NCBI RefSeq assembly: GCF_057098645.1
Contig: NZ_CM169472.1
Strand: one strand, 5' to 3'
Length of the DNA stretch: 64,000 nt
A program made the position numbers and the translations under genes. Of this stretch, positions 5,875 through 34,916 are shown piece after piece. The notes beneath the pieces are model-generated. The model had not been told where the DNA came from, did not search any database, and saw nothing but the letters and a program-made list of their open reading frames with translations. The stretch's first letter is position 1. Every line of letters starts with the position of its first letter.

Positions 5875-6198
5875 ATGAAGTGGGTAGTAATTGACACGGT
5901 CATTCAACCTACATGCGGCATATCTTTTTCAGCCATATGGGGTGATATGAAAATGATCATCTGGTATCAATCTACTATATTTCTTCCTCCTGGAAGTATA
6001 TTTACACCTGTTAAGCCTGGTATTATCCTTAAGGATAAAGAATATCCTATTACTATTTATAACATTGCGCCATTCAACAAGAATTTATGGAGTTTACTCA
6101 AAAGCAGTCAAGAGTGTCCTCCAGGAGAAAGCGAAATAACAAATAAATGTTTGCATAAGAGTTGTATTATAAAAATATGCCCATATGGGCTCAAGTAA
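5875..6198 (+). CDS. iraM: IraM, anti-adaptor protecting RpoS from RssB (107 aa)
   Basis: Protein [41 protein letters not shown]... about 90 percent identical to recalled K-12 IraM; AT-rich context. Confidence 0.8.
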
Positions 6199-6300
6199 TA
6201 GGTTTTATATAAATATGCTCGATATGCTATTAATAATATCCACATAAATAAAACAACGGGCGTGTTATACGCCCGTTTAAATATTTAACACATGTAGAGA

Positions 6301-8386: not shown

Positions 8387-10008
<1,622 letters not shown>

Positions 10009-14359: not shown

Positions 14360-14443
14360 ATATGTCCTTTTATCACTATACCAAGTCAAGTCATTGATTT
14401 AATTAAACAATTATCATTGAAAAAGTGCCAAAAATCGCAAATT

Positions 14444-15320: not shown

Positions 15321-16982
15321 TTACACCCCGCTAAATTCTTCCAGTTTCTGGCGGTGGCTGTCGCTTATATCAAAAGCAAAATCCTCATGCTCTGCCTGGA
15401 ATGTACCAAACGCCATCAGCGCCGCCACGCTCGGGTCTATCTTGTTCGGTGATTTTTTCTTGTTCGGCTTGATATTGGCGTTCGCGTCACTCTGCATCAC
15501 GACGTTACTCATCGACCAGGACAACACCGGATCGCTACGATGCACAATCACCCTGCGGTTAACAAAAACTTCGAACGATTTCGCCGCCGGACTGAATCTG
15601 AGGTAGGTTTGCGGGAACGGCTCCACCTCAAAGCCTGCCCCCTGTAATTGCGTCCTGAGATGCGTGGCGTTCCACGTATCAAAGCCCACCAGCCTGATAT
15701 TAAATTTCTCCGCATCCTGCATGATGTCATCTCTGATCCGGTCGTAATCAATGCAGTCACCTGGCGTTGTGCGTATCCAGCCCGCTTTAGCCCACTGGCG
15801 ATAGACAGCGCGGTTTTTATTGGCGGGGTTCTGTAGCTGGAACTCCGGCAGATAATGACGGGAAACCAGCATGATATTTTTACCGACCGGAAAGGCATAG
15901 CACACGCTGGAAATATCGCTGGTTGATGATAAGTCCAGCCCCGCGTAACACTCCTGCCCGTGTAAATCTTCCTCCGTGAACGTTCCGGCACACTCAGCCC
16001 ATGCGCCGTTACCCATCCACGGGGTAGCCCCCTGGCACCAGATATTAAATCGCTTTGTCATCATCTCCACCCATTGCGACGGAATACCCCGCGCTTTCTG
16101 GATGGTTGAGGCCAGTTTTTCACGATCCACGGAAACATCGATGTTAGGGTTAGCCTTTATCCACATCGCCGGATCATCAACCTCGTTTTCGTCGTCCAGT
16201 TCGTAAATCAGTACAAAAATTGAATCGTTGACCTCTTCGCCGTCCAGGATCTGGCAGCAATAATCATAGTGCTGCTTACAGGCTGAAACGACGTTACTGC
16301 CCGATGTGGTAATGGCAAATAACAGCCCTTCGGGACGTGCGCCCATCCCCAGCTCAAGCGCGGAATAAACGCCGTTATCGGGGTGTAGGTGGTATTCGTC
16401 CACGATGGAAAGGCTTGGGTTTGTGCCCTCGATGGTTGCCGCTTTTGCTGCCAGCGGCTTTAACAGGCTGTTGCTTTTCGGGTGCATCACCTTGTGGGCC
16501 TGAATATTCACCCGCCTGCGTAACGGTCGGGATAAAAGGCACATCTGACGCGCATCATCAAAAACGATCCGCGCCTGGTCACGGCTCACCGCTGCGGTGT
16601 AAATATCCTGCTGCCCGTTCTCCATAATCAGAAACCAGTTAGCCAGAATCGCGGCGGTCGTGGATTTCGCATTTTTGCGCGGCACTTCGATAAAGGCGCT
16701 CGTGTATTTGCGCCGTCCGGTGGCCTTAACCTTAAAGCCGAGGATGCACGCAAAGGCGAACTGCTGCCACGGCTCCAGCTCAATGGGTCTGCCACGCATC
16801 GGTCCTTTTACGTGCGGGCACACCCTGGAAAAGGCAATAAACCGCTCCACAACCTCACGATCGAACGTGTAAAGGGGGCTTTTAAGGTCCGAAAAGTACC
16901 GTTTAACAGCCTGTTTTAACCGTTTACAGGCCGGAATTTTGCCCGTTTTTACGTCTTCTGCGTACTTATTCCAGGCGGTCAA
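15321..16982 (-). CDS. terL: Terminase large subunit (553 aa)
   Basis: Size and position after TerS; ATPase and nuclease regions typical of phage TerL. Confidence 0.85.
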   Translation of the reverse strand: MTAWNKYAEDVKTGKIPACKRLKQAVKRYFSDLKSPLYTFDREVVERFIAFSRVCPHVKGPMRGRPIELEPWQQFAFACILGFKVKATGRRKYTSAFIEVPRKNAKSTTAAILANWFLIMENGQQDIYTAAVSRDQARIVFDDARQMCLLSRPLRRRVNIQAHKVMHPKSNSLLKPLAAKAATIEGTNPSLSIVDEYHLHPDNGVYSALELGMGARPEGLLFAITTSGSNVVSACKQHYDYCCQILDGEEVNDSIFVLIYELDDENEVDDPAMWIKANPNIDVSVDREKLASTIQKARGIPSQWVEMMTKRFNIWCQGATPWMGNGAWAECAGTFTEEDLHGQECYAGLDLSSTSDISSVCYAFPVGKNIMLVSRHYLPEFQLQNPANKNRAVYRQWAKAGWIRTTPGDCIDYDRIRDDIMQDAEKFNIRLVGFDTWNATHLRTQLQGAGFEVEPFPQTYLRFSPAAKSFEVFVNRRVIVHRSDPVLSWSMSNVVMQSDANANIKPNKKKSPNKIDPSVAALMAFGTFQAEHEDFAFDISDSHRQKLEEFSGV

Positions 16983-17322
16983 GCTCGTCCTCTTCTTCTG
17001 TTTCCGGTGGATTTTTACGGCGGCTTATCGGGTCAAAACCGAGCAAGGAGGCCATTTTTATCATCACTCTTTCAGCGTCGGATTTTGCGCTTAATGCGGG
17101 GTTTCTGCTCTCGCCGCCCTGACTGTTAACAATGCTGAACCCGCGCGCCGCAAGGTCTGCAACGGCTTTCCGGTAAATGGAGTAGTTGACGCAATACAGT
17201 TCCAGATTGCTCCAGTCGGCGGGGGTCAGGTCTCCCCGTTCCGCAAGCTGCCGCGATTTTTCCCGCCACTGCTTCACGGCGATATCATCCAGGTAGGCGG
17301 GGGCTTTCGGTGGTCTTGCCAT
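16966..17322 (-). CDS. terS: Terminase small subunit, P27-family-like (118 aa)
   Basis: Small acidic-C-terminus protein overlapping terL start, downstream of an HNH gene. Confidence 0.75.
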   Translation of the reverse strand: MARPPKAPAYLDDIAVKQWREKSRQLAERGDLTPADWSNLELYCVNYSIYRKAVADLAARGFSIVNSQGGESRNPALSAKSDAERVMIKMASLLGFDPISRRKNPPETEEEDELDRLE

Positions 17323-17444
17323 GCTTATTTTTCGTCAGATTATTTTTCAAAAAATTCCCGTGCATAAAAATTTGAGGAGGCGTTCGGTGCCCGGCGGGGT
17401 CGGGTTTGTCCTGAAAACGCCCCCCACCCCGTCATACAGCCTCA

Positions 17445-17669
17445 TCAGCGATTGCGGAAACATTCCATAACCTCGCGGTCACGGTCGGTTAATCGCTTCG
17501 CTGTGATGCGTTCTGCGCGTCCTGACGCTTTATCTTTATGCCCTGTTTCCTGTGTCTTCCATGCGTCACGCTGCCTTATAAGTCCACGGATAAGGCGGTT
17601 TTGTTCCCGCTCATTCATCAGCGTCATACATCCAGTTATTGCGGTTAGCGGCCCGTTCTTCCTCTTCAT
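17445..17669 (-). CDS. Hypothetical basic protein (74 aa) overlapping the 3-prime end of the HNH gene
   Basis: ATG at 17669 preceded by AGGTGG Shine-Dalgarno (5-nt spacer); out of frame with HNH; start uncertain. Confidence 0.4.
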   Translation of the reverse strand: MKRKNGPLTAITGCMTLMNEREQNRLIRGLIRQRDAWKTQETGHKDKASGRAERITAKRLTDRDREVMECFRNR

Positions 17670-18051
17670 GAAATCCACCTGCGGCACGCTTGCTTTTTGT
17701 TGCCGGATCAAGCCATTTCGTTTTCTGGTTATGACACGCCTGGCACAATGGTTGATGGTTCCATTCGGGCCAGAAGAGAACATCATCACCGCCATTAATC
17801 GGGATAATGTGATCCACCACCACGGCGGGCGTATATATCCCCTTCTCAAGGCATCGCACGCATAACGGGTTTTTACTCAGATACATGGCGCGGTATTTGT
17901 CCCACTGTCTGGAGTACCCACGCGCGCGGCGGTGTCCTCGTCTGGCATCCTCTGCACGCCATGCCGCCCGCCTGTGCTCCTCACACTTGCCGGACTTCAC
18001 GCGCCTGTTACAGCCTGGTTCTGTGCATCGTCTTAATGGTTGCCACGGCAT
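17611..18051 (-). CDS. HNH endonuclease (146 aa), packaging-associated
   Basis: Cys/His-rich motifs (CxxC ... HIIPINGGDD ... CQACHNQK); located just upstream of terS as in HNH-dependent cos packaging. Confidence 0.85.
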   Translation of the reverse strand: MPWQPLRRCTEPGCNRRVKSGKCEEHRRAAWRAEDARRGHRRARGYSRQWDKYRAMYLSKNPLCVRCLEKGIYTPAVVVDHIIPINGGDDVLFWPEWNHQPLCQACHNQKTKWLDPATKSKRAAGGFHEEEERAANRNNWMYDADE

Positions 18052-18347
18052 CAGTACACCCCCACATCACGGTAAGCCGTCCAGAGCGCGCCAATCGTCA
18101 TGGGTACGCGCGTTTTTGCGTTATCCGCTACCAGCTGGCGATTCTCGTACAGGTGAGCGATAAACATCATGCAGCCAATCTTTATGGCTGGCGTGAACTC
18201 CAGCCCGTCATCAAAGCGCCTGCCTATATGTATCTGGCACGCCTCAAGCGATGCGGCAATGTATCCGCTGATTAACTGGTCTTCCTCGTCGCCATCGATG
18301 CGGCAATGGAGTTTCACTTCTTCCAGGGTGATAAGTTCTTCTGTCAT
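18051..18347 (-). CDS. Head-tail connector protein, gp6-like (98 aa)
   Basis: Size, position and sequence character of phage gp6-like connector proteins. Confidence 0.65.
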   Translation of the reverse strand: MTEELITLEEVKLHCRIDGDEEDQLISGYIAASLEACQIHIGRRFDDGLEFTPAIKIGCMMFIAHLYENRQLVADNAKTRVPMTIGALWTAYRDVGVY

Positions 18348-18682
18348 TTTTCCGCGCCCTCACGACAAAGAATTTCAAGGCGTGTCCTGGCGGCATCCGG
18401 CAGCGGCTGCCCGATGATATTCAGTACACGCCCCGCCAGCGGCCCCGTACTGACCTTTATCCGGCTGGTGGCGTTGATGTCCTTCCGGTACCGTATCCAG
18501 ATCCTTACGGTACCAATCGCCAGCTCTGCACCCGATGAAATGGCCTCCTTGCTGCTGATCATGTTCACGCTTGCCCAGAGTGTGTGACCGTCCTCCCACG
18601 TTTCGAGTATTTCGCCGGTTATATCCCTGGTCTGTTTCAGGGTCTGAATCGTTACCCTGTCACGCAGTCGCCCTATGTTCAT
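18344..18682 (-). CDS. Head-tail adaptor / head closure protein (112 aa from MNIGRL)
   Basis: MNIGRLRDRVTIQ... typical of head-tail adaptor family; starts 4 nt inside the portal 3-prime end. Confidence 0.65.
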   Translation of the reverse strand: MNIGRLRDRVTIQTLKQTRDITGEILETWEDGHTLWASVNMISSKEAISSGAELAIGTVRIWIRYRKDINATSRIKVSTGPLAGRVLNIIGQPLPDAARTRLEILCREGAEK

Positions 18683-19890
18683 TCCGGTTTTTCTCCCTCG
18701 CTGATTTTTACTTCCTGTTTCCATGCCTGGCTGAACTCATCACCACCATCACGCGGGGACAGCCCTTCACGTTCGCGGGCTTCGTTCGGGCACATAACGC
18801 CGGATTTGATGCCGCGTTCATAGGTGGCAAAGCGTTCGCCAGGTGTGGCCCGTAACAGGTCCGCGCTGTCAAACTCCACCTGATACCGGATACCAGGTAC
18901 AGGCGAGGCCACCAGCAGGGCGTTTTTTATCTGCTGCTCAAAGTTCGCCAGCCACGGGCGCATCGTCATGGTGAGAAATGCGCGGCTTGCCTCGCTGAAA
19001 TTGCTGTAGGTGCTGTTGCTGTATTCCTGCAAAAAAATCGGCGAGACGTTGAACATTCGGGCGATGTCTTCAATGGTGAAGCGACGGGAGGCCAGCCATT
19101 CAGCATCCTGATTACTCATGCCCAGCTGCTGATAGCTCATACCCCCTTCAAGGATGGGCGTTTTTCCGGCGTTTCTGGCCCCTTTGTAGCGTTCCAGTGC
19201 GGCTAATGCCTGTTTGCCCTTCACGCCGTCCAGCCATTCGCCTGACGTGATAACCCCTGCCGCCATCATGCCATCACGCATCACGCTCGCGCCGTGGCGT
19301 TGTTGGGCCAGCCCAAGCCCCAGCGATTCGCGGCAGATGGTTACAGGTGAGCGCCCCATAAAACCGTCATCCGTGGAGTAACGAAGGTGGAGAACCTCCC
19401 ACGGTAAATAGTTGCGGGTGTTTCCGGTGTAGGCGTCAGTGATGCAGTAGCGCCAGTTGTGTTCGCCTGTCTGCTCCACGTTCACCGACTGCGGCGGGTA
19501 AGGATGTAAAGCCACCGGAAAACCATCACGCCCCCACTGAATCACCGCATAAGCATTACCGTTTAACAGGCAGTGGCGGATCATCATTCGCTTAAACTGG
19601 TAGGGAGTCTGCCACGCGTTCGGGCGCTCGTTGAGGATGTGATCGACCGGATGAGAATCAAGCCACTCTCGGGCCTCCTTCCCCTTCTCATTGCGTACCA
19701 GGTACAGGTAACACGGCATGGTAGCCACCGCCTCAGAGATGACCGTGACGGCGTTCATGACGGCGGGCAGTGATTCCGCTGTCCCCGATGATACGTACTC
19801 ACCCGCCCCCGTGTTCGATGTGCCAGCCAGCGCCATAAACTCATCAAGCGTCATGCTGCGCTGCTCTTTTTTTCTTCTGAAAGGCCACAT
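18679..19890 (-). CDS. Portal protein, HK97 family (403 aa)
   Basis: Size and position between prohead protease and connector genes. Confidence 0.8.
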   Translation of the reverse strand: MWPFRRKKEQRSMTLDEFMALAGTSNTGAGEYVSSGTAESLPAVMNAVTVISEAVATMPCYLYLVRNEKGKEAREWLDSHPVDHILNERPNAWQTPYQFKRMMIRHCLLNGNAYAVIQWGRDGFPVALHPYPPQSVNVEQTGEHNWRYCITDAYTGNTRNYLPWEVLHLRYSTDDGFMGRSPVTICRESLGLGLAQQRHGASVMRDGMMAAGVITSGEWLDGVKGKQALAALERYKGARNAGKTPILEGGMSYQQLGMSNQDAEWLASRRFTIEDIARMFNVSPIFLQEYSNSTYSNFSEASRAFLTMTMRPWLANFEQQIKNALLVASPVPGIRYQVEFDSADLLRATPGERFATYERGIKSGVMCPNEAREREGLSPRDGGDEFSQAWKQEVKISEGEKPE

Positions 19891-19891
19891 A

Positions 19892-20464
19892 TCACACCCC
19901 CGCTAAATCCGCCCACCAGCGGCGATTATCCGCACGCGGCATTTTTTCGGGGTGCTGCTCATACAGGGAACGGCGGGCCAGCTCCACGCCGGAATCGGGG
20001 TAAGCCGGTACCGATGTAACGGTAATTTCGTACAGTTCCGCCACCAGCACGGTGCGCACGCATGGATCTGTTGTGGTATCCCATACATCCTTACGGGAGC
20101 GAAAGCCAAAGCTCATCCCCGAGATGTCCCCACGCTTAACCAGTTCGATAACGTCGCGCCCTGTACTGGTATCCGGTGGGGTCAGTTCAAAGCGTAACCC
20201 TGTTTCGTCCTCTTCCAGTTTCAGCGTGCCGGAACGGGTGCGCCCCAGTAACATGCTGTGGTCATGCTCATACAGGCCGCGAACGTCATTACCCGCCGCA
20301 AGCCATTCAGTAAACGCTCCCCGCTGGAATTTTTCGTAAAACTCACCCCATAGCAGATCAGAAAGGTTATCCCAGCGAACAACGTAGCCTGTAAGCGTGT
20401 TGCTGGCGCTGGTGGTGATTTCCGATGACCGGATTTCCATACTCTTCATAATTTTTTCACCCAT
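19892..20464 (-). CDS. Prohead maturation protease, HK97 family (190 aa)
   Basis: Size and position between major capsid and portal genes. Confidence 0.8.
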   Translation of the reverse strand: MGEKIMKSMEIRSSEITTSASNTLTGYVVRWDNLSDLLWGEFYEKFQRGAFTEWLAAGNDVRGLYEHDHSMLLGRTRSGTLKLEEDETGLRFELTPPDTSTGRDVIELVKRGDISGMSFGFRSRKDVWDTTTDPCVRTVLVAELYEITVTSVPAYPDSGVELARRSLYEQHPEKMPRADNRRWWADLAGV

Positions 20465-20503
20465 AAAACACTAAAGGGGCTTTTAAGCCCCTTCTGTATG
20501 CTG

Positions 20504-21661
20504 TTAATCGTCGTCTTCCGGCAGTTCCAGAATCTTGATCGCGTTCGAATCCACCACGCCACCGCCTAAATATTTTTGCGTGAAAATTTTGATGAATCCT
20601 GGTTCTGTCAGGTTGTCCGGTCTGGTGCGAACACCTGTTTCGTGATCAACAATGTAGTAACCGCGTTTGAAGTCACCCAGGGCAATAACGTTATCAGGCA
20701 TAAACTCCAGATATTCGACCGGAAGGCCCAGCAACGTATCAGGATCACCCGCCTGTAAACGGTCGCGCCAGATATAATCACCGTTCGCGTTCTTCACCTT
20801 CTGAAGTTTTGCCGCCGTCGTGGAGTTAACCACCCAGACCGCGTTTTTGCGGTATTTTTTACGTAATGCAAATTTCAGGTCGATCAGCGGGTCCGCAGAT
20901 GTCCACGCCAGAGATTCGGAAGGTTTAATTACCTGCAACGTACCAAAATCACGCTCTTTGTCGTTCTTCTCTGCACGGGGTACGGATAAAAAACCTTTTG
21001 CTTTTTTGTCACCGTCGCCCACAACCAGATCGCTTTCTTCGGTTTCCGTGAAGGTGTCGCCAATCTCACCCGTCAGCCATGAAAGGATGTCCACATCGGA
21101 AAAATCCACGATTTCCTGTGTGGTGCGCGGGTACGCATAGACCGGATACAGCTTGATGCTCACCTCGTTAATCTGCGGGGTGCTGGTCTGTTCGCGTGCC
21201 TTACCCTCTTCACCGTGGTTAACGGTCGCACCGCCAGCGGAAACAAGCTGCTTAAACTCGTTGCTGCTGATTTTCTTCACGGTACAGATGCGGCGCATGG
21301 TGGATTCATCCGCCAGCATTCGCATGATTTCGGTGTTCAGTTCAGGGATAACGGTATAACCACCATCAGCGGGAACGCCTGTACTTAATGCGCGGGTTTC
21401 ACCTGTCAGAATGTAGTTGCGGAGTTCTGCGGGGTCAGTGGTCTGACTGCTTTTACCTGGCTTGCTGCGCTCTTCGTCTGCAATGGCTTCAAGGCGGGAA
21501 ATGTCTTTATCGAGGGATTCAGCTTTAGCGCGTAATTCGTCAAATTTTGCGCCCTCTGCATCGTTAAGGCTGCGGTTTTCTTTTTCCGCGTTCTCCAGCA
21601 TGTCGCGCATCTGATTTTTAATGGCGGTTTTCTGCTGGCGTAATTCGATTATTCTCGGCAT
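20504..21661 (-). CDS. Major capsid protein, HK97 fold, with N-terminal coiled-coil scaffolding (delta) domain
   Basis: Start taken at MPRIIELRQQ (ATG 21661) because the upstream codons of the 21706 ORF form a terminator hairpin; coiled-coil N-terminus then MCP-like body. Confidence 0.85.
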   Translation of the reverse strand: MPRIIELRQQKTAIKNQMRDMLENAEKENRSLNDAEGAKFDELRAKAESLDKDISRLEAIADEERSKPGKSSQTTDPAELRNYILTGETRALSTGVPADGGYTVIPELNTEIMRMLADESTMRRICTVKKISSNEFKQLVSAGGATVNHGEEGKAREQTSTPQINEVSIKLYPVYAYPRTTQEIVDFSDVDILSWLTGEIGDTFTETEESDLVVGDGDKKAKGFLSVPRAEKNDKERDFGTLQVIKPSESLAWTSADPLIDLKFALRKKYRKNAVWVVNSTTAAKLQKVKNANGDYIWRDRLQAGDPDTLLGLPVEYLEFMPDNVIALGDFKRGYYIVDHETGVRTRPDNLTEPGFIKIFTQKYLGGGVVDSNAIKILELPEDDD

Positions 21662-21699
21662 AAAAAAAAGTCCTGGGGTTAAGTAAGGAACTCCAGGAC
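21662..21699 (-). terminator. Intrinsic terminator immediately upstream of the capsid start codon
   Basis: Minus-strand RNA: GUCCUGG(AGUU)...(AACC)CCAGGAC stem followed by U8 and then AUG. Confidence 0.55.
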
Positions 21700-21751
21700 G
21701 CGGCAAACACTCAACCGTTTTTCATAAGGAAATCAGTAATCGCACCGATCG

Positions 21752-21920: not shown

Positions 21921-21943
21921 CAAAAAGCCGGATTGCTCCGGCT
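21921..21943 (-). terminator. Intrinsic terminator after the PerC-like gene
   Basis: Minus-strand AGCCGGA-GCAA-TCCGGCU hairpin followed by UUUUU. Confidence 0.5.
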
Positions 21944-21949
21944 GTGTGA

Positions 21950-22222
21950 TTATCTGTCCTGGTAATTTCGCCATATTTCATCACCAGCACCATCCATACC
22001 CATTTCGGCATAAGTGCGATCGACCGCCTTTTTCAGGTCTCCGTAATTATCCGGCGGCTCCGGTGGCCTCTGTGCCTTCCTGGAACATTCCAGCCGTCGC
22101 ATCGTGATATGATGCCGTTCCTTGTCTGTCTCCACCAGCTGCATGACTTCACCCCATCGCGCCGCCGCCCTCCGGTAAAAGCCTTTCGCCTCCAGTTCCT
22201 CCGCTATGCGGTCATGTACCAT
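21950..22222 (-). CDS. Small regulator, possibly PerC-family (90 aa from MVHDRIAEEL)
   Basis: ATG 22222 with GGGGGTGA Shine-Dalgarno, 11 nt after the ssb stop; FYRRAAARW motif reminiscent of PerC-like activators; family assignment is tentative. Confidence 0.4.
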   Translation of the reverse strand: MVHDRIAEELEAKGFYRRAAARWGEVMQLVETDKERHHITMRRLECSRKAQRPPEPPDNYGDLKKAVDRTYAEMGMDGAGDEIWRNYQDR

Positions 22223-22232
22223 CGTCACCCCC

Positions 22233-22643
22233 TCAGAACGAAATATCATCACCGTAAGGGTCATCGCCTCCCGCTGGTGGCTGATTACCCTGTGTGCCTG
22301 TGGTTTTGCGTCTGTTCCCGCCTGGACGTGCCGCGCGGGCACTGATTACGCTGTCTGCGATAACCTGCCAGCCCTGCCGCGTTTCTCCGTTCTGTCCGGT
22401 CCACTGGCTGACCTGCATCGTGCCGGATACGCTGGCAACATCGCCTTTTTGATGTTTAGCCAGGAAGTCGGCCTGTTTGCCAAATGCGATGACCGATAAC
22501 CATAACGTCGCCTGTCCGTCCTGTGCCTGGCTGCATGGCAAAGATACCGCCATACGCGCCAGCGTCATCGGTGTGCCCTTGCTGGTCTGTTTTACCTGCG
22601 GGTCGTCCACCAGCCGCCCGTAAGCGGCTATCTGTGCCGTCAT
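22233..22643 (-). CDS. ssb: Single-stranded DNA-binding protein (136 aa)
   Basis: OB-fold region plus Gly/Pro-rich tail ending with acidic DDISF-like C-terminus. Confidence 0.75.
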   Translation of the reverse strand: MTAQIAAYGRLVDDPQVKQTSKGTPMTLARMAVSLPCSQAQDGQATLWLSVIAFGKQADFLAKHQKGDVASVSGTMQVSQWTGQNGETRQGWQVIADSVISARAARPGGNRRKTTGTQGNQPPAGGDDPYGDDISF

Positions 22644-22891
22644 AATTCCACCTCTCCGGTTTTAACGTTGATGGTTGTTACCTGTTCCGCTTCGGCAATC
22701 TCCCGTTCTGTCAGCGTGGCAAAGTTTGCCGCCGCCGTGGTCATGAATGCGCTTATCAGGTCGGGATGTTCCTTCGCGTATCCTTCCCGCGTGTGGCGGT
22801 CTATCGTTCTGATTGCCACCTTTAAGGTGTGCTCAGTCATGTCTAACGCTTTATATTTTGGCTCTGTTCTGTCTCTGCGTTTTTGGGTCAT
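22640..22891 (-). CDS. Hypothetical protein (83 aa from MTQKRRDRTEP)
   Basis: ORF between ori and ssb; GAGAGG Shine-Dalgarno before ATG 22891; start uncertain. Confidence 0.45.
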   Translation of the reverse strand: MTQKRRDRTEPKYKALDMTEHTLKVAIRTIDRHTREGYAKEHPDLISAFMTTAAANFATLTEREIAEAEQVTTINVKTGEVEL

Positions 22892-22903
22892 TTCTCGCAA
22901 CCT

Positions 22904-23093
22904 CTCACTTTTTCGCCTCACTTTTTCAAGCGTCTCACTTCGTCGCAGTTGGGATTTTCGGTTTTTCTATGTGTGTGTTTCATAAGTATTTTTTTACCCC
23001 TCACTTTTGAGGATGTATACAGGTCGAAAAGTGAGGGAGAGCGGGCTAATTTTGGCCCTCTTTCTATCCCCCTCGCTTTTGCTCCTCACTTTT
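22904..23093. repeat. Iteron array, candidate island replication origin
   Basis: Six direct copies of (C)CTCACTTTT and one inverted copy (AAAAGTGAGG) immediately 3-prime of the rep gene, the last overlapping the rep stop codon. Confidence 0.6.
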
Positions 23094-24492
23094 ATAGCGG
23101 CGCTACATCATCCCCATCGATACGAATAACCCCATCTTTTTCCAGCTTGTACAGCCAGCGCCGGAAGTTTTTCATTTCATACCCCAGCTTTTTCATGTCA
23201 TCACGTAACAGCGGGATCGTGCACTTGTCGCCGTTCTGTGTGCGTGAACGGATGCACCCCCATAGCGCGGTATGGTTTTCCGTCTTGTTCCCTGCCTCCT
23301 CGATGCGCTCCAGTTCAACAGGAGGGCGCGGATCATCCACCACCACCAGCGACGTGATTAATTCACCGTCAGCGTCGGTAAAAAGCTCCACCACGCGTAA
23401 GTCATATGCGGCTTCTTTGAGTTCCTCCGCGTCCTTCATTTTGGTGCATGAGATAACCAGCGCTTCGCTTCCTGCGTCCTCCCTGCGTATCCGGTATTCA
23501 GCATCCAGCGAAGCACGAAATGCACTGGAACCGCGCGCGCCTTTCGTCTCATCCTTGCCGGAATGGTGAACCACCAGCACCGTGGCCCCTGTGCGTCGTT
23601 TCAGTTCGTCACAACCACGGATAAACGCCCCCATATCACGGGAATCATTTTCATCATTCCCACCAAAGCAACGCGCCAGCGTATCCAGAATAATCATGCG
23701 TACAGGTTTACCCGTTTCCCGCTCCACCTGACGGGCAGCGATAACCATTTCATCAACATCAAGCGGGGCAGCCGGAAAGATGGGGCGGTTTACCAGATAC
23801 AGATTTTTCACCTGCTCATCGTGCACAACCTCCCAGGCTTTTACACGACGCGGAACACCTATACCGCCTTCACCAACCACATAGAGAACCGCACCATGTG
23901 CAACCCTGCGGCCTCCCCACTGGCGACCAGTGGCAACATGGCACGCCCACGATCCGGCAAGGAATGATTTATAGGACCCGCTAGCCCCGTATATGCTGCA
24001 TAGCGATACCGCCGGAATAATCCCCTTAACCACGTAATCCAGTTGCGTGTCGTATCCGGTAGATCCAACGCTCATCGGTAGCGTGGTTTTTCGCTGGTGG
24101 TTTTTTTCTTCCGCCGGCTCTTTCCCGCGCACCCGTTCCAGGTATTCGCGCCAGTTCTCCCGCATATGGTTGTGCATCCCTTCGGGGTAATAATTCGCAT
24201 CAGTTACACCCGCCGCCGCCAGCTTGTGCGCAATGGCATTAATATTTGATGGCCTGATGTGGCCTGCCTTGTACAGCCGGACACAATAGCGCCCCTCGTC
24301 GATGATTCTCAGGTCTGCCAGTTCATCCAGTTGATCATCAGCCAGCACAACGGGAGGCACATTATCGCCAGCCAGTCGCCCGTCCTGTTCCTGCCACTGT
24401 TTCGCATGTGCCCAGGCATCACTACCCGCAAAAATAATGACTTCGGTCATCTTGTCGTAAGGCTGTTTTTTTAAGTTCGGTGCGCTTTTCAT
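23092..24492 (-). CDS. Replication initiation protein (primase/helicase-like RecA-fold NTPase, 466 aa)
   Basis: Deviant Walker A (GASGSYKS) and Walker B (MIILDTLARCF) motifs; position between small-gene operon and ori as in PICI pri-rep. Confidence 0.7.
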   Translation of the reverse strand: MKSAPNLKKQPYDKMTEVIIFAGSDAWAHAKQWQEQDGRLAGDNVPPVVLADDQLDELADLRIIDEGRYCVRLYKAGHIRPSNINAIAHKLAAAGVTDANYYPEGMHNHMRENWREYLERVRGKEPAEEKNHQRKTTLPMSVGSTGYDTQLDYVVKGIIPAVSLCSIYGASGSYKSFLAGSWACHVATGRQWGGRRVAHGAVLYVVGEGGIGVPRRVKAWEVVHDEQVKNLYLVNRPIFPAAPLDVDEMVIAARQVERETGKPVRMIILDTLARCFGGNDENDSRDMGAFIRGCDELKRRTGATVLVVHHSGKDETKGARGSSAFRASLDAEYRIRREDAGSEALVISCTKMKDAEELKEAAYDLRVVELFTDADGELITSLVVVDDPRPPVELERIEEAGNKTENHTALWGCIRSRTQNGDKCTIPLLRDDMKKLGYEMKNFRRWLYKLEKDGVIRIDGDDVAPL

Positions 24493-24614
24493 TTCTTGCC
24501 CCTGAATCCGTTAACTGCGTATTCCGCTCTATTCGATCACGGATTGGCATCGAAGTCCGATCAGCGATTCGCATCCATTCGATCAACCGGGAACTTAACT
24601 TTTTCTACCGCTTT

Positions 24615-25370
24615 TTAACGCGTTTTTTCGCTGCTTTCCACTACCGGGGGATTTTTCCTCAGTGACTCTCCCTGAAGGACCACTCGGTGTGAGTTATGTA
24701 CCAGTCTGTCCAGGATGGCATCTGCTGTTGTTGGGTTCTCCATCAGACCATGCCATTTATCTACCGGGAACTGGCTTACCACTATCGTGCTGCTTTGTCC
24801 GTAACGATCCTCTATGAGCTCCAGAAGGTCATTACACTGGGCGTTACTTAACTGTTCCAGCCCCAGATCGTCCAGGATTAGAACCTGTATTTTTTGCAAC
24901 TGTTTCAGATATTTCAGCCAGCTGCCATCAACACGTCCCTGAGCCAGTTGTTCCAGTAATCGCCCGGTTCTACAGTACCGGACGCTGTGTTTCTGTCGAC
25001 ATGCCTGTTCGCCCAGCGCATTGGCTATCCAGCTCTTGCCACATCCTGTCGGACCGGTTATCAGCAGGTTTTTCCTGTGGGTTATGTAGTGGCCGTTCAG
25101 CAGTTCTCTCATCTGTTCAGCCCGCAGACCTCTTGAGGCCGGATAGCGCAGCCCTTCCGGTGTTGCCTGGTATTTCAGGCCGGCATTTTTTCTCAACCGT
25201 GCCACACGGCTGTTTTCCCTGCTCAGAAGCTCGTCATCAACCAGCAGCGTCAGCCTTTCCTCGAACGACAGTTCGTCGTAGGTCTGAGGCGTTTCCCGCT
25301 GCCGTATCAGGCTCCCGGCCATCGCCGGGAGTTTCAGTTGGGTCAGTTTGTTTAACAGGTTATCACTCAT
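24615..25370 (-). CDS. istB: IS21-family helper ATPase IstB
   Basis: Walker A GPTGCGKS and typical IstB architecture; start taken at MSDNLLNKL. Confidence 0.85.
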   Translation of the reverse strand: MSDNLLNKLTQLKLPAMAGSLIRQRETPQTYDELSFEERLTLLVDDELLSRENSRVARLRKNAGLKYQATPEGLRYPASRGLRAEQMRELLNGHYITHRKNLLITGPTGCGKSWIANALGEQACRQKHSVRYCRTGRLLEQLAQGRVDGSWLKYLKQLQKIQVLILDDLGLEQLSNAQCNDLLELIEDRYGQSSTIVVSQFPVDKWHGLMENPTTADAILDRLVHNSHRVVLQGESLRKNPPVVESSEKTR

Positions 25371-25386
25371 ACTGTTGTTCCTTCTG

Positions 25387-26952
25387 TCAGTGGTAGTAGC
25401 CCGGACCACGCAGGTTTTCATGCTCTGAAGCATATGCCGGATGTTGTTCGCCCTGGCGGGATAATGGAAGCTCCAGGTTCTCCCGATGGTGACGCAGCAG
25501 ATTGTCGATAAAGCGTCTGTCAGGGGCGTTATAGTGCAGGGCAACGTAACAGGCCTTTTCCAGCCGTTCCGGGCCGTATTTTTTCTGAAGTGCCAGCAGC
25601 CCCAGAACTGCACGATAAGCCAGTTCCGGATGGGGTTTTGCCTTCAGCATGGATTCAACCACCCGGCCTGTGGACGGGCCCGTACGTTTTCCCTGCTCGA
25701 TCAGGCGTTCCGGTGTCCATGTCCCGTGCTGCCGGTGGCGCTCTGGCATGTGAAGCGGATTGGTTGTGTGTTTATATTCATGTGTGCTGCGCGGATGTTG
25801 CGCCACACACTGCCCCTTGTGCCAGAGCTGTACCACCGACTGCCCCGCCTTCAGTGACAGACGCTGACCGACCAGTTCGTGTGGAACGGAGTACCAGTGA
25901 CGGGCATATTCAACGTGGTAGTCAGGGCCAACCTTCACAGCTTTGTATTCCGTGTATTCATAAGGTGCCAGAGGCAGCGGAGAGAGTGCTGGCGCATCCA
26001 GTATGCGGAAGCGTTCTGCACGGGTTTGATTGCCGTACCCCTTCATTGGCCGGTTATTCATGTCTGTCAGTAACTCCCTAAGGCGCGCATTCAGCGCCCT
26101 GAGCGTGTGGAAGGTTTCATTACGGATGCGGGCAAGAAGCCATCGTTCAACGATGAGGACGCCGTTTTCTGCTTTTGGTTTATCTTTAGGTTTGCGTGGT
26201 CGGGCCGGGATGATAACCGTGCCATAGTGCTCAGCCAGTGCCTGATAACTGTCGTTGATGACAGGCTCATATCGATCGGCCTTTTTCACTGCGCTTCTGA
26301 GGTTATCGGGGATGAGCAGCTTCGGTACGCCGCCCAGGAAGGTCAGGCAACGGCTGTGGGCATTTAACCATGACATCATGTCCTGACCTTCGCACGCTTC
26401 AACGTAGGTATAGTTGGACGCCCCCATTACGGCCACGAAGATTGCCACGCGGCGTATCTCACCGGTGTCCGGATTAATAACAGGAACCGTAGGACCACAG
26501 AAGTCGATAAAAAGCTTTTCGCCGGCACGATGCTCCTGGCGCATGGAGAGACGTCGCGTTTTTTTCCACTCCCGGTAGCAACGGCAGAAGTGCGAGTATC
26601 CCATCGCTTTGTTACCCGCCTGTGCCTTGTATTCCATCCACAACAGTTGCCGCGTCACACCTGGTTTTCTCATTTCCGTATCGAAGTACAACATGTCAGG
26701 CATTACAAGCTCTGATGCAAAGGTGTCTTTGGGCGGAAAAATGAGTTTCTCCAGCGTGTCATGGGATATATCAGCAGGTAATGGCCATGACAGAGAAGAG
26801 GCTTTGAAGCGGGCAAGAACCTCAAAAACGGTTGAGGCGCTGATGTGTAACGTCAGTCCGATACAACGGTTAGTCAGCTTCTTGTCGAACTTGAGCTGAA
26901 GGATCTTAAAACAGGTTTCCATAGTGCTCCTGGATTTTCTCTTTCTGGACAT
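25387..26952 (-). CDS. istA: IS21-family transposase IstA
   Basis: N-terminal HTH then DDE integrase core; start ambiguous (26922, 26952 or 27033). Confidence 0.8.
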   Translation of the reverse strand: MSRKRKSRSTMETCFKILQLKFDKKLTNRCIGLTLHISASTVFEVLARFKASSLSWPLPADISHDTLEKLIFPPKDTFASELVMPDMLYFDTEMRKPGVTRQLLWMEYKAQAGNKAMGYSHFCRCYREWKKTRRLSMRQEHRAGEKLFIDFCGPTVPVINPDTGEIRRVAIFVAVMGASNYTYVEACEGQDMMSWLNAHSRCLTFLGGVPKLLIPDNLRSAVKKADRYEPVINDSYQALAEHYGTVIIPARPRKPKDKPKAENGVLIVERWLLARIRNETFHTLRALNARLRELLTDMNNRPMKGYGNQTRAERFRILDAPALSPLPLAPYEYTEYKAVKVGPDYHVEYARHWYSVPHELVGQRLSLKAGQSVVQLWHKGQCVAQHPRSTHEYKHTTNPLHMPERHRQHGTWTPERLIEQGKRTGPSTGRVVESMLKAKPHPELAYRAVLGLLALQKKYGPERLEKACYVALHYNAPDRRFIDNLLRHHRENLELPLSRQGEQHPAYASEHENLRGPGYYH

Positions 26953-27137
26953 TGACGTCTCCACTGGTTTAAACACGGCAATGGAGACTGTGGTGAAAAG
27001 AGTTAATTCCCGGAGTGACTGGCAGGATGCCAATCAATGATCGGAAGCATGCCAAATCGTGATCGATTGTGATGCCAAACTGTGATCGGAGATGGATGCC
27101 AAATCATGATCGATTCGAATGCCAAACTGCGATCGAT

Positions 27138-27434
27138 TCAGATGCCATTTTGCACGTTAACCATGGTTTTCAGCTTCTGGATGTTTGCCCGTGCCCTGGC
27201 GTTGCTGGTGGGCACGTTATGCGGCGCGGTCTGTACCAGAGAAAAATCACGCCGGAACTGATAAACAGGCATCACGCAATCATATTCGTAACCTTCACGG
27301 CGGTAAGTTACGCACCGTCCCGCCACGCCCTTAATCATTACCGTGCCGCCGTACTGGTCGCGGTAAATATCACCGCGCGTAAATTTAGGGTGAGTGTTGC
27401 CACTGGCAGTTAAGCCAGAATATTTAAGTTTCAT
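27138..27434 (-). CDS. Hypothetical protein (98 aa); last 6 codons replaced by IS21 end sequence
   Basis: Before the IS21 insertion this gene would end ...KLKTMVNGFRGKK with its TGA overlapping the rep ATG (24490-24492). Confidence 0.5.
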   Translation of the reverse strand: MKLKYSGLTASGNTHPKFTRGDIYRDQYGGTVMIKGVAGRCVTYRREGYEYDCVMPVYQFRRDFSLVQTAPHNVPTSNARARANIQKLKTMVNVQNGI

Positions 27435-27896: not shown

Positions 27897-27929
27897 AACC
27901 CCGTTACTTTATTCGTACCCCTTATAATG

Positions 27930-28129
27930 GGGTGTTAGCCAGCCAGACCCGGCATGATTACTGCCCCCAGTCGTCCATGATCCGGGGGGTGATGTCACCG
28001 GGTCTGGTGGGGCGCTGGTAACCGCTAATAGGGGTCAGGTCAGGCACTTTTGCCGGGACCGTCTGTAACGTGGATGCCGGTACCTGCTCCCCGTGGTTAT
28101 CTGGTTAACCCATATACAAGGGAGACAGA
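27930..28129 (+). ncRNA. Candidate IS110-type bridge (guide) RNA in the 5-prime non-coding end
   Basis: Structured GC-rich non-coding flank upstream of the recombinase, where IS110-group elements encode their bridge RNA; not verified by folding. Confidence 0.25.
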
Positions 28130-29326
28130 ATGACCGAATCCAGCGATTACGAATCCGTCCAGGTCTTTATCGGCGTTGATGTCGGTAAAGATACGCATCA
28201 CGCTGTAGCCATTAATCGTTCAGGTAAACGCCTGTTCGATAAAGCATTACCCAACGACGAAAACAAACTCAGGTCGCTAATATCTGACCTGAAACAACAT
28301 GGTCAGATACTGCTGGTTGTTGATCAGCCAGCTACCATCGGTGCGTTACCTGTCGCCGTTGCCCGCTCAGAAGGAGTCCTTGTCGGATACCTCCCTGGAC
28401 TGGCCATGCGCCGCATAGCCGACTTACACGCCGGTGAAGCTAAAACTGATGCTCGTGACGCTGCCATCATTGCCGAAGCTGCCCGTACCCTGCCTCACGC
28501 GCTACGCACGCTGAAACTGGCTGACGAGCAAATCGCCGAACTCTCCATGCTCTGCGGCTTCGATGATGATCTTGCCGCACAGACAACGCAGGCCAGCAAC
28601 CGTATCCGCGGCCTTCTGACCCAGATACATCCGGCACTGGAGCGCGTTCTCGGTCCGAGACTTGATCACCCGGCGGTACTCGATCTTCTCCAGCGATATC
28701 CCTCACCAGAAAAACTCGCTTCGCTGGGTGAGAAGAAGCTGGCAGCCCAGCTCTGCAAACTTGCGCCTCGTCTGGGTAAACGCCTTGCAGCAGACATAGC
28801 TCAGGCACTGGCCGAACAAACCGTCGTCGTTCCCGGCACGAATGCCGCTGCCGTAGTACTGCCACGTCTGGCACTCCAGCTCATCACGCTGCGTAAGCAA
28901 AGAGACGAGGTGGTGCTTGAGGTAGAACAGCGAGTTCTTGCTCACCCTCTTTACCCGGTCCTGACCAGTATGCCCGGAGTCGGTGTCAGGACCGCAGCCA
29001 GACTCCTCACCGAGGTCGCCTGCCGCGCCTTCGCCTCTGCCGCACATCTCGCTGCTTATGCTGGCCTTGCGCCGGTAACTCGGCGATCCGGCTCGTCAAT
29101 ACGCGGTGAGCATCCCTCGCGACGGGGTAATAAAGCTCTCAAACGGGCGTTGTTCCTGTCGGCCTTCGCCGCGCTCAGGGATCCGCTCTCCAGGGCTTAC
29201 TACACCCGCAAAATGAGTCAGGGAAAACGACACAATCAGGCGCTTATCGCCCTGGCGAGACGACGCTGCGACGTTCTGTTCGCCATGATGCGCGACGGGA
29301 CTTTTTATACCCCGCAGGCGTCATAA
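28130..29326 (+). CDS. IS110-family transposase/recombinase (398 aa)
   Basis: N-terminal IGVDVGKDTHHAVAIN (RuvC-like DEDD) motif and C-terminal serine-containing domain. Confidence 0.85.
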   Translation: MTESSDYESVQVFIGVDVGKDTHHAVAINRSGKRLFDKALPNDENKLRSLISDLKQHGQILLVVDQPATIGALPVAVARSEGVLVGYLPGLAMRRIADLHAGEAKTDARDAAIIAEAARTLPHALRTLKLADEQIAELSMLCGFDDDLAAQTTQASNRIRGLLTQIHPALERVLGPRLDHPAVLDLLQRYPSPEKLASLGEKKLAAQLCKLAPRLGKRLAADIAQALAEQTVVVPGTNAAAVVLPRLALQLITLRKQRDEVVLEVEQRVLAHPLYPVLTSMPGVGVRTAARLLTEVACRAFASAAHLAAYAGLAPVTRRSGSSIRGEHPSRRGNKALKRALFLSAFAALRDPLSRAYYTRKMSQGKRHNQALIALARRRCDVLFAMMRDGTFYTPQAS

Positions 29327-29339
29327 CATGCTTGACAAC

Positions 29340-29561
29340 TTAATAGGGGCACCCCCCATTTTCACAATCAGCAATAAGAATATTTTTAGCGTCATTCAGC
29401 GACCGCGTGGCGGTGTATCGGATACATTCCAGGGCGAACTGTGTCCGGTCTTTCTGTTCTTCTCCCTGCGCAAGCTCTGCAGTGCATTCAATATCGATAA
29501 GCGCGTGCATCAGCGTAGTGAGCGCGGCGGCTGCTGCGTCCGGTGTGGTTTTATTGCACAT
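29340..29561 (-). CDS. Hypothetical Cys-containing protein (73 aa, MCNKTTPDAAAAALTTLMHALIDIECTAEL...)
   Basis: AGGAGG Shine-Dalgarno 8 nt upstream; ATG overlaps the end of the preceding gene by 11 bp; stop is 14 nt from the IS110 transposase stop. Confidence 0.5.
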   Translation of the reverse strand: MCNKTTPDAAAAALTTLMHALIDIECTAELAQGEEQKDRTQFALECIRYTATRSLNDAKNILIADCENGGCPY

Positions 29562-30625: not shown

Positions 30626-30814
30626 TTAATGAACTGCCTTGCAGCTATCCTTCCAGGCCAGAACCTCGGATAAAGACCAGCCAACGGAACGACCGCCAAG
30701 TTTACGACGTGATGGGAATTGTCCGGCCTTTTCCAGGCGGTAGCGACACGTACGGCTAAGGCCGGTTAGTTTTTCGCATTCTTTTTCACGTATAAACCGA
30801 TCAGTGCTTAACAC
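30626..30814 (-). CDS. alpA: AlpA-family phage regulatory protein (62 aa)
   Basis: LTGLSRTCRYRLEKAGQFPSRRKLGGRSVGWSLSEVLAW matches the AlpA/Xis-like HTH family pattern. Confidence 0.8.
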   Translation of the reverse strand: MLSTDRFIREKECEKLTGLSRTCRYRLEKAGQFPSRRKLGGRSVGWSLSEVLAWKDSCKAVH

Positions 30815-32406: not shown

Positions 32407-32444
32407 TGCTCTGCTCACGTTTTACCCCCTCTTTACGAAAAAGT

Positions 32445-33500: not shown

Positions 33501-33524
33501 CGGCCTCCGCAGAGGCCGTCAGGG
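33501..33524. terminator. Bidirectional hairpin between tqsA and pntB
   Basis: ACGGCCTCCGCAGAGGCCGTC inverted repeat. Confidence 0.45.

Positions 33525-34916
<1,392 letters not shown>

What the first reader, a model, noticed from the sequence alone, without database searches (positions are those of the whole stretch)
22904..23093. Iteron array abutting the rep gene: probable island origin of replication
Six direct and one inverted copy of CCTCACTTTT lie immediately 3-prime of rep, the last overlapping its stop codon. This is the arrangement seen for SaPI and P4-type origins.
Basis: partly seen in the sequence, partly recalled or inferred. Interest (0 to 1): 0.5.

Follow-up and report, generated by a model that had tools for sequence, protein, structure and literature searches.

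The report
Replication origin of a phage satellite
The short repeats just after the rep gene are almost certainly the sites where the island's own helicase-initiator binds to start copying a phage-satellite island; this is a known kind of origin, and in this genome the island around it is damaged.

Summary
Seven copies of AAAAGTGAGG (rep-sense strand) lie in 22903-23093: three exact direct, one exact inverted, two with one mismatch, one with two. The first overlaps the rep stop codon.

The array fills the same slot as the experimentally validated EcCICFT073 origin, between the initiator gene and a conserved small gene plus ssb. It matches the same stretch of the published PICI EcCIRM12579 at 220 of the 221 window bases aligned.

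About 60 Rep homologues across Enterobacterales keep the same layout:
- Two or three direct iterons at the stop codon.
- An inverted iteron pair around a TGTATA(T/C)A centre.
- A usually A+T-rich tract.
- Three or four direct iterons.

Iteron base 6 tracks one residue at the start of the last helix of Rep's C-terminal winged-helix domain: N with A, H or K with G, S or G with C (57 of 57 loci).

Rep is a RecA-fold RepA-type (AAA_25) helicase. It is not the SF3 or MCM-type helicase of SaPIs or the SF3 helicase of P4, so it works like those systems without belonging to them.

In this window the replicon is probably crippled. An IS21-family element sits 23 bp upstream of rep, a second IS lies further upstream, and the island ends carry two different att cores.

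Verdict: an ordinary member of a known kind, with a neat specificity code.

The parts
23092..24492 (-). rep: a 466-aa initiator-helicase. Residues 1-122 form an N-terminal domain shared with other PICI initiator types. Residues about 148-385 form a RecA-fold RepA/AAA_25 core. Residues 400-466 form a winged helix.
   Evidence: ORF. Pfam AAA_25, E = 2.4e-43. Best PDB sequence match is RSF1010 RepA, 1g8y. Foldseek hits are Rad51, KaiC, RadA and T7 gp4. AlphaFold2 model. 465 of 466 residues match the EcCIRM12579 Rep.
23095..23295 (-). Region encoding Rep's C-terminal winged-helix domain (residues 400-466). The N442 codon is at 23167-23169.
   Evidence: AlphaFold2 gives helices 405-419, 426-435 and 443-452 and strands 456-459 and 462-465, with pLDDT above 90. 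Foldseek hits are all winged-helix DNA binders. N442 covaries with iteron base 6.
23071..23093 (-). Rep-proximal iteron pair, AAAAGTGAGG and AAAAGCGAGG, 13 nt start to start. The first overlaps the rep stop codon.
   Evidence: The same position (offsets about 0 and +12 from the stop) is occupied in about 60 homologous loci.
22998..23037 (.). Core dyad: an inverted iteron (23027-23036, + strand) and a direct iteron (22999-23008, - strand). They flank an 18-nt spacer that holds the palindrome TGTATACA (23014-23021).
   Evidence: Inverted repeat I2: 11-nt arms, 100% complementary, 18 nt apart. The dyad with a (T/C)(G/A)TATATA-like centre is kept across genera.
22955..22997 (.). A+T-rich tract (65-75% A+T) next to the core dyad; candidate unwinding region.
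   Evidence: The least stable 25-mers of 22600-23400 start at 22968-22978, which is in the top 1.3% of the whole window.
22903..22940 (-). Rep-distal iteron cluster: GAAGTGAGAC (22931-22940), AAAAGTGAGG (22916-22925) and AAAAGTGAGA (22903-22912). The last overlaps the ribosome-binding region of the next gene.
   Evidence: Homologous loci have 3-4 direct copies at offsets about +151 to +190.
22640..22891 (-). Conserved 83-aa gene (phrog_1231, function unknown) immediately after the origin. It is not specific to the iteron type.
   Evidence: 73% identical to the gene that follows the EcCICFT073 origin. Homology with islands of other Rep types ends at about 22898, just before the iterons. phrog_1231 match.
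22233..22643 (-). Island-encoded single-strand DNA-binding protein, a likely accessory of the replication module.
   Evidence: Pfam SSB, E = 1.7e-16.
24516..27154 (.). IS21-family insertion (istA and istB) with a 7-bp target duplication, CGTTAAC. It lies 23 bp upstream of the rep ATG and cuts the 3' end of the DUF4222 gene, so rep is separated from the island operon.
   Evidence: blastn against the uninterrupted island of strain 14EC001, and the junction sequences. ORFs.

Best explanation
The repeats are the iterons of the replication origin of a phage-inducible chromosomal island (PICI). In this window the island has a capsid-forming (cf-PICI) packaging module.

Shown here:
- The 466-aa Rep encoded immediately upstream has a RecA-fold RepA-type helicase core and a C-terminal winged-helix domain.
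- One residue at the start of that domain's last helix (N442) changes together with base 6 of the iteron across the family.

Inferred:
- The winged helix binds AAAAGTGAGG, and N442 reads the adenine at base 6.
- Rep molecules bound to the inverted pair at 22998-23037 face each other across the TGTATACA centre.
- Rep oligomers assemble there and open the duplex at that centre or in the adjacent A+T-rich tract (22955-22997).
- The helicase loads itself.
- Host DnaG and DNA polymerase III, helped by the island's SSB, then copy the element. This Rep has no primase domain.
- The direct-repeat clusters at both ends (23071-23093 and 22903-22940) raise local Rep occupancy. Because the last iterons overlap the next gene's ribosome-binding site, they may also affect its expression.

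In this genome the cis element and the rep ORF are intact. An IS21-family insertion 23 bp upstream of rep and mismatched island ends make an active, excising replicon unlikely.
For: - Position: the array lies between the initiator stop codon and a conserved small gene plus ssb. The EcCICFT073 origin fills the same slot, and its deletion reduced pri-rep-dependent plasmid maintenance (PMC6092414).
- Modularity: islands with the same flanks but other initiators carry other iterons in that slot. D5_N/SF3 types have GGTAGAGG, CTGTCTACC or CTGTTCACC; the DUF927 type has TTGTCCCA. Homology with the ssb-side module stops at about 22898.
- Conservation: about 60 of 73 Rep-homologue loci, from Xenorhabdus to an Oceanospirillaceae MAG, hold 5-12 copies of an AAGTGnGGn unit at the same offsets from the stop. 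Among four E. coli islands, 69% of iteron columns are invariant against 32% of other intergenic columns.
- Covariation: iteron base 6 against the residue before F443 gives A-N 21, G-H 6, G-K 24, C-S 5 and C-G 1, with no exceptions. About 8 parsimony changes fall on a helicase-core tree, including switches between close relatives.
- Structure: residues 400-466 are a confident winged helix, and N442 lies at the N-cap of helix 3.
- Helicase core: AAA_25, with RSF1010 RepA as the best PDB sequence match.
- Published counterpart: the stretch matches the published PICI EcCIRM12579 at all but one aligned base.
Against: - No experiment on this Rep type was found in the searchable literature. Binding, melting, helicase activity and self-loading are all inferred.
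- The A+T-rich tract is only moderately unstable, and in some homologues it is not A+T-rich at all. The melting site is therefore uncertain.
- The Walker A motif is unusual (GASGSYKS), although it is conserved across the family.
- The rep-distal iterons overlap the next gene's ribosome-binding region, so a regulatory role cannot be separated from an origin role.
- Relatedness of the loci inflates the covariation count. About 8 changes is the fair number, not 57.
- In this window the IS insertion may silence rep.
Confidence: 0.85

Rival explanations
1. The repeats are mainly a transcriptional or translational control region for the downstream genes (the 83-aa gene, ssb, perC and the packaging operon). 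Rep or another island protein would bind them as an operator. They would not be an origin.
For: The rep-distal cluster ends 11 nt before the next ATG, and its last copy provides the GAGAGG ribosome-binding sequence. The same placement recurs in E. coli relatives.
Against: - No sigma-70-like promoter was found in 22500-23400.
- Gram-negative PICIs are transcribed as one rightward unit from the alpA promoter (PMC6092414).
- The downstream gene is shared with islands that have quite different iterons.
- The repeats covary with the helicase's DNA-binding domain.
- The slot is a validated origin in EcCICFT073.

A secondary regulatory effect remains possible.
Confidence: 0.08
2. The repeats are a packaging signal (cos or pac accessory sites) recognised by the island's small terminase or HNH protein.
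For: The island encodes its own HNH, TerS and TerL. Terminase-binding sites are often short repeats (general knowledge).
Against: The same rep-iteron module, about 99.8-99.9% identical at the DNA level, occurs in islands with a quite different packaging module (capsid, decoration protein, other TerS). The repeats track Rep, not the packaging genes. They lie about 5.6 kb from terS.
Confidence: 0.02
3. The array is a real but dead origin. The sequence is an inherited relic with no activity in this genome, because Rep is not made and the island cannot excise.
For: - An IS21-family element lies 23 bp upstream of rep.
- A second IS (IS110 family) lies further upstream.
- The island ends carry different att cores: GGACATATTT at 14358-14367 and ATAACAGCA at 32594-32602.
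Against: The rep ORF and all iterons are intact and essentially identical to those of EcCIRM12579. Read-through or an outward IS promoter could still express rep, and in situ replication does not need excision. This reading qualifies the main explanation rather than replacing it.
Confidence: 0.5

Closest known systems
Origins of Gram-negative PICIs (EcCICFT073 pri-rep-ori; Fillol-Salom et al. 2018, PMC6092414)
   Same: - Same chromosomal att core at the phoQ end (GGACATATTT).
- Same gene order: DUF4222, initiator, origin, small gene, ssb, perC.
- Origin immediately 3' of the initiator gene, with short iterons in both orientations.
- The first 122 residues of Rep are 62% identical.
   Different: - The EcCICFT073 initiator body is D5_N/DUF5906/Pox_D5 (SF3 type). 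Here it is RepA/AAA_25 (RecA fold).
- Its iterons are CTGTCTACC/GGTAGA, not AAAAGTGAGG.
- Only the CFT073 origin has been tested.
EcCIRM12579 (published PICI of E. coli O55:H7; Table S1 of PMC6092414)
   Same: Rep is identical at 465 of 466 residues. The origin stretch matches at all but one aligned base, and that base lies outside the iterons.
   Different: It has the classical PICI packaging module (capsid, decoration protein, TerS). The window has the HK97-like cf-PICI module. It is uninterrupted and lies between roxA and phoQ. I found no specific test or text description of its origin.
SaPI origins and Rep proteins (Ubeda et al.; Qiao et al. 2022, PMC9371898)
   Same: - Iterons immediately downstream of rep.
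- Copies on both sides of an A+T-rich region, with opposed orientation.
- The initiator is a helicase with a C-terminal winged helix that reads the iterons.
   Different: - SaPI Reps are SF3 or SF6 (AAA+) helicases that move 3' to 5'. This one has a RecA-fold RepA/DnaB-like core.
- The iterons are 10 nt rather than 5-6 nt.
- The opposed pair flanks an 18-nt TGTATACA spacer rather than the long A+T tract.
Satellite phage P4: alpha protein with ori and crr
   Same: A block of short iterons in both orientations (crr, 4291-4590) abuts the 3' end of the initiator gene alpha (4636-6969). A sister PICI (L007) even uses the P4 type 1 repeat TGTTCACC.
   Different: - P4 needs two cis sites. The annotated origin is 9086-9809, away from alpha.
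- Alpha is a 777-aa protein annotated 'DNA primase'. That it is a primase plus SF3 helicase is from memory; P4 alpha was not scanned here, and the D5_N/Pox_D5 calls are for the sister PICI initiators L005 and L007.
- The window Rep has no primase and shows no significant similarity to alpha.
RSF1010 RepA and T7 gp4-type primase-helicases
   Same: Same helicase fold family. The best PDB sequence match is 1g8y. Longer homologues carry Zn-ribbon and Toprim primase domains, as gp4 does.
   Different: By my recollection, RSF1010 RepA and T7 gp4 do not recognise an origin themselves and rely on RepC or on transcription. This Rep carries its own sequence-specific winged helix.

Membership tests
PICI replication origin (Gram-negative lineage, Fillol-Salom 2018) | Lies immediately 3' of the replication initiator gene, within a PICI. 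| tested here: met
   The first iteron overlaps the rep stop codon. The island has int, a 62-aa ORF (30626-30814) in the slot of the helix-turn-helix (alpA-type) regulator of related islands (no family hit of its own), one direction of transcription, no tail or lysis genes, and PICI att cores.
PICI replication origin (Gram-negative lineage, Fillol-Salom 2018) | Two sets of short iterons flanking an A+T-rich region. | tested here: met
   Four copies lie on the rep side and three on the distal side of a 65-75% A+T tract at 22955-22997. The tract is only moderately unstable.
PICI replication origin (Gram-negative lineage, Fillol-Salom 2018) | The iterons are specific to the cognate initiator. | tested here: met
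   Different initiator types in the same slot have different iterons. Within the family, iteron base 6 covaries with Rep residue 442 in 57 of 57 loci.
PICI replication origin (Gram-negative lineage, Fillol-Salom 2018) | Rep plus ori drives autonomous replication, and deleting ori impairs it. | not testable with these tools
   Shown only for EcCICFT073, which has a different Rep body.
Capsid-forming PICI (cf-PICI) | Own capsid, protease, portal, connectors, HNH, TerS and TerL; no tail or lysis genes; 10-18 kb. | tested here: met
   ORFs 15321-21706. They match the annotated island of strain 14EC001. Criteria as given. The island is about 13.8 kb without the two IS elements.
SaPI-type Rep/ori | The initiator is an SF3 or SF6 (AAA+) self-loading helicase. 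| tested here: not met
   The core is AAA_25, a RecA fold. The nearest matches are RSF1010 RepA, Rad51, KaiC and T7 gp4. The SaPI classes are described.
SaPI-type Rep/ori | A C-terminal winged helix recognises iterons located just after rep. | tested here: met
   Predicted winged helix at residues 400-466, plus the covariation. Binding itself was not tested.
P4 alpha/ori/crr system | An alpha-type primase-SF3 helicase, TGTTCACC type 1 repeats, and two separate cis sites. | tested here: not met
   No significant similarity to alpha. The iterons differ. Only one repeat block was found: outside 22903-23093 the window holds only isolated, scattered motif matches.
Classical iteron plasmids (Rep_3/RepA-pi-TrfA type) | A Rep_3-type initiator, 17-22-bp iterons, and DnaA boxes or IHF sites in the origin. 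| tested here: not met
   Pfam gives only AAA_25. The iterons are 10 bp. No DnaA box, IHF consensus or GATC occurs in 22850-23150.

The most novel reading that the evidence does not exclude
This Rep family may be a third, independently built class of satellite self-loading initiator-helicase. It would combine a RecA-fold (SF4-like, presumably 5' to 3') motor, with or without a fused Toprim primase, and a winged helix whose iteron specificity is set largely by one residue (N for A, H or K for G, S or G for C). It would act on an origin whose functional core is an inverted iteron pair across a TATATA centre. That would allow rational re-targeting of Rep-origin pairs, and a comparison of how SF3, SF6 and SF4 motors solve self-loading on the same origin plan.
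Probability: 0.45. Interest if true: 0.5.

Novelty: new member of a known kind. Interest (0 to 1): 0.3.

Why it matters
The finding itself is routine. It locates the origin of a PICI, as the published model for these islands predicts, and a virtually identical stretch sits in a catalogued PICI (EcCIRM12579).

The comparative by-products carry the modest added value:
- This Rep class uses a different helicase superfamily from the studied SaPI and EcCICFT073 initiators, yet the origin plan is the same.
- A single residue-to-base correspondence is seen across about 60 loci. It gives a directly testable specificity rule for incompatibility and cross-talk between co-resident satellites.
- E. coli PICI initiators are mosaics that share one N-terminal domain.

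For annotating this genome, the origin is intact but the island is IS-disrupted and has mismatched ends, so it is unlikely to be mobile.

Tried and rejected
- Promoter and terminator scan of 22500-23400: no sigma-70-like site. The only stem-loop within the array lies on the strand antisense to the operon and is not conserved. The promoter reading was therefore not favoured.
- DnaA box, IHF consensus, GATC and oriC-type 13-mers in 22850-23150: none, or only 3-mismatch matches. This is not a DnaA-dependent plasmid-type origin.
- Full-text search for the iteron sequence and its variants returned only unrelated eukaryotic papers. Searches for a description of a RepA-type PICI origin found none.
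- A search for P4 crr and type 1 repeat papers gave nothing useful. The annotated P4 record was read instead.
- Foldseek of the C-terminal domain gave only generic winged-helix hits with weak E-values (0.02 or higher). No specific relative such as a SaPI or P4 origin-binding domain appeared.
- NCBIfam and Pfam gave nothing for Rep residues 1-122.
- The cos/pac reading was rejected because the rep-iteron module is shared between islands with different packaging genes.
- The 228-aa + strand ORF at 22883-23569 and the small ORFs that RefSeq annotates inside the origin of strain Z1323 were treated as spurious. They run through the repeats or antisense to rep.
- No complete E. coli genome in the collection holds the island with both IS elements, so the source strain was not identified.

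Full report
**1. The observation**

The stated motif CCTCACTTTT (+ strand) is AAAAGTGAGG on the strand that encodes rep. In 22903-23093 there are:
- three exact direct copies (22916, 22999, 23084);
- one exact inverted copy (23027);
- two one-mismatch copies (22903, 23071);
- one two-mismatch copy (22931) that keeps the AAGTGAG core.

The copy at 23084-23093 overlaps the TAA of the 466-codon ORF at 23092-24492 on the minus strand. At one mismatch or fewer the 64-kb window has 11 matches against 3.98 +/- 2.02 expected, and none of 100 shuffles reached 11. Six of the 11 sit in 190 bp.

**2. Context**

All genes from 15.3 to 32.4 kb run on the minus strand. In order they are:
- integrase (31189-32418);
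- small regulators;
- a DUF4222 gene;
- the 466-aa protein (Pfam AAA_25, E = 2.4e-43);
- the repeats;
- an 83-aa gene;
- ssb;
- perC;
- an HK97-like head module: capsid, protease, portal, connectors, HNH, TerS and TerL.

There are no tail or lysis genes. This fits the published description of capsid-forming PICIs, and the island matches annotated islands in complete E. coli genomes.

**3. Positional homology with a validated origin**

Fillol-Salom et al. 2018 (PMC6092414) state that in Gram-negative PICIs the region immediately 3' of the initiator gene is the origin, with two iteron sets flanking an A+T-rich region. They showed for EcCICFT073 that pri-rep plus ori maintains a plasmid and that deleting ori reduces maintenance.

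EcCICFT073 lies between roxA (ycfD) and phoQ. It has the order DUF4222, initiator, 288-bp repeat region, small gene, ssb, perC. Its small gene is 73% identical to the window's 83-aa gene, and its repeat region is full of CTGTCTACC/GGTAGA copies. The window's repeats therefore occupy the same slot as a tested origin.

The window's Rep and origin also match the published PICI EcCIRM12579 closely: 465 of 466 residues, and all but one aligned origin base.

**4. The repeats travel with the initiator, not with the neighbours**

E. coli islands share the DUF4222 side and the ssb side but carry different initiators (Pfam assignments). Each has its own iteron family directly 3' of the initiator:
- D5_N/SF3 types have GGTAGAGG (L005) or CTGTTCACC (L007).
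- The DUF927 type has TTGTCCCA (L006).

Homology with the ssb-side module stops at about 22898, five bases before the first repeat.

**5. Family-wide conservation**

A scan of one genome per species returned 73 loci that encode Rep relatives. In about 60 of them the 300 nt after the stop codon hold 5-12 copies of an AAGTGnGGn unit at nearly fixed offsets: about 0, +12, +56 (inverted), +85, sometimes +135 (inverted), then +151 to +190.

The inverted/direct pair at +56 and +85 always brackets a spacer whose centre is (T/C)(G/A)TATATA-like. In the window this is TGTATACA at 23014-23021.

Among four E. coli islands, 69% of iteron columns are invariant against 32% of other intergenic columns. The variable iteron columns change in all copies at once: GAGG becomes GGGG or GGGC.

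**6. Covariation with Rep**

The last 70 residues of Rep align as helix, helix, helix, hairpin. The residue just before the invariant F-x-R-W-L (N442 in the window) predicts iteron base 6 without exception in 57 loci:

| Residue | Iteron base 6 | Loci |
|---|---|---|
| N | A | 21 |
| H | G | 6 |
| K | G | 24 |
| S | C | 5 |
| G | C | 1 |

On a tree built from the helicase core alone this needs about 8 changes. These include switches between close relatives in the E. coli clade and in the Kosakonia/Kluyvera clade.

AlphaFold2 with a 33-sequence alignment gives a confident winged helix for residues 400-466, and N442 caps the third helix. A separate model of the domain agrees, and its Foldseek hits are all winged-helix DNA binders such as Fur, IclR, ArsR, LexA and histone H1. 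I infer that this domain reads the iterons. Binding was not measured.

**7. The motor**

The core is a RecA fold. The best PDB sequence match is the RSF1010 RepA helicase (E = 0.0055). Structural matches are Rad51, KaiC, RadA and T7 gp4.

Homologues of about 680-700 aa add a zinc-ribbon and a Toprim primase at the N-terminus. The window's protein has no primase domain.

SaPI Reps have the same domain logic (motor plus C-terminal winged helix, with iterons after rep) but use SF3 or SF6 motors. P4 alpha showed no significant similarity to the N-terminal 135 residues of the window Rep, the only stretch compared. In P4 the block that abuts alpha is crr, and the annotated origin lies elsewhere.

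So this system works like those, but it is not a member of either.

**8. Mechanism proposed**

Shown:
- The anatomy of the repeat array.
- Its conservation across the family.
- The covariation with Rep.
- The predicted folds.

Inferred:
- Rep binds the iterons through the winged helix.
- Two Rep assemblies face each other on the inverted pair.
- The duplex opens at the TATATA-like centre or in the adjacent A+T-rich tract. The least stable 25-mers of the surrounding 800 bp start at 22968-22978.
- The helicase loads itself.
- Host primase and polymerase, with the island SSB, complete replication.

No DnaA box, IHF consensus or GATC is present, and no promoter-like site was found.

**9. State of the replicon in this window**

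- An IS21-family element (24516-27154, target duplication CGTTAAC) lies 23 bp upstream of the rep ATG, inside the end of the DUF4222 gene.
- A second, IS110-family element lies in 27903-29558.
- The phoQ-side end carries the ycfD-phoQ att core (14358-14367). The int-side end carries the tqsA att core (32594-32602), next to a truncated tqsA and pntB.

The island looks like the product of recombination between two resident PICIs. It probably cannot excise, and rep may not be expressed.

**10. Verdict**

The feature belongs to a known kind, and a virtually identical stretch sits in a catalogued PICI. It is of low to moderate interest.

The points worth keeping are:
- the RecA-fold Rep class;
- the conserved dyad core;
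- the one-residue specificity rule.

Noticed in passing
window 14358-14367 and 32594-32602; 32616-34913: The island is flanked by two different PICI att cores: GGACATATTT (ycfD-phoQ type) at the phoQ end and ATAACAGCA (tqsA type) at the int end. A truncated tqsA and pntB follow the int end. This suggests recombination, probably an inversion, between two resident PICIs, and an island that cannot excise.
   Followed up: partly
window 24516-27154 and about 27903-29558: Two insertion sequences lie inside the island's early region. The IS21-family element (istA, istB; 7-bp duplication CGTTAAC) is 23 bp upstream of rep. The IS110-family element has its transposase at 28130-29326.
   Followed up: partly
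window 24127-24492 (Rep residues 1-122); L006 2231-4366; L083 5242-6996: The first 122 residues of Rep are 82% identical to the N-terminus of a DUF927-type initiator and 62% identical to that of the validated EcCICFT073 Pri-Rep. Three unrelated initiator bodies therefore share one N-terminal domain. Its function is unknown; the only hit is a weak phrog_864 'DNA primase' match.
   Followed up: partly
L025, L029, L031-L033, L045, L056-L058, L064, L073 (about +95 to +119 after the rep stop); L083 about 7183-7204; L005: A motif CTGAAAGCCGCGCCATTACTGG sits at a fixed offset in 11 origins of RepA-type Reps, those checked being about 455 aa with no primase domain. It is also present in origins of the unrelated D5_N type, including the validated EcCICFT073 origin. 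It is absent from the window. It may be a host-factor or priming signal.
   Followed up: partly
L007 2330-2565; L084 (P4) 4291-4590: An E. coli PICI with a D5_N/Pox_D5 initiator uses iterons CTGTTCACC/GGTGAACAG. These contain the type 1 repeat of satellite phage P4 (TGTTCACC), which in P4 fills crr directly after the alpha gene.
   Followed up: partly
L035-L052 (Serratia, Pectobacterium, Erwinia and Morganella loci), last codons of rep: In the Reps with K at the specificity position, an extra iteron lies inside the coding end. The C-terminal residues K-V-G-D are encoded by AAAGTGGGGGAT.
   Followed up: no
window 21922-21945 against L082 9400-9732: About 330 bp between perC and the capsid gene are missing relative to the closest complete island (strain 14EC001), including a 225-nt hypothetical gene. 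The 130-aa perC ORF call (21950-22342) overlaps ssb. The real start is probably further in; RefSeq relatives are about 90 aa.
   Followed up: no
L001, L081, L085 against the window: The same rep-origin module (99.8-99.9% identical) is combined with a classical PICI packaging module in O157:H7 and O55:H7 strains, and with the HK97-like cf-PICI module in the window. This shows module exchange between the two satellite types.
   Followed up: partly
L003 1592-1971: RefSeq annotates two small hypothetical genes (153 and 201 nt) across the origin repeats of strain Z1323. These are probably spurious calls.
   Followed up: no
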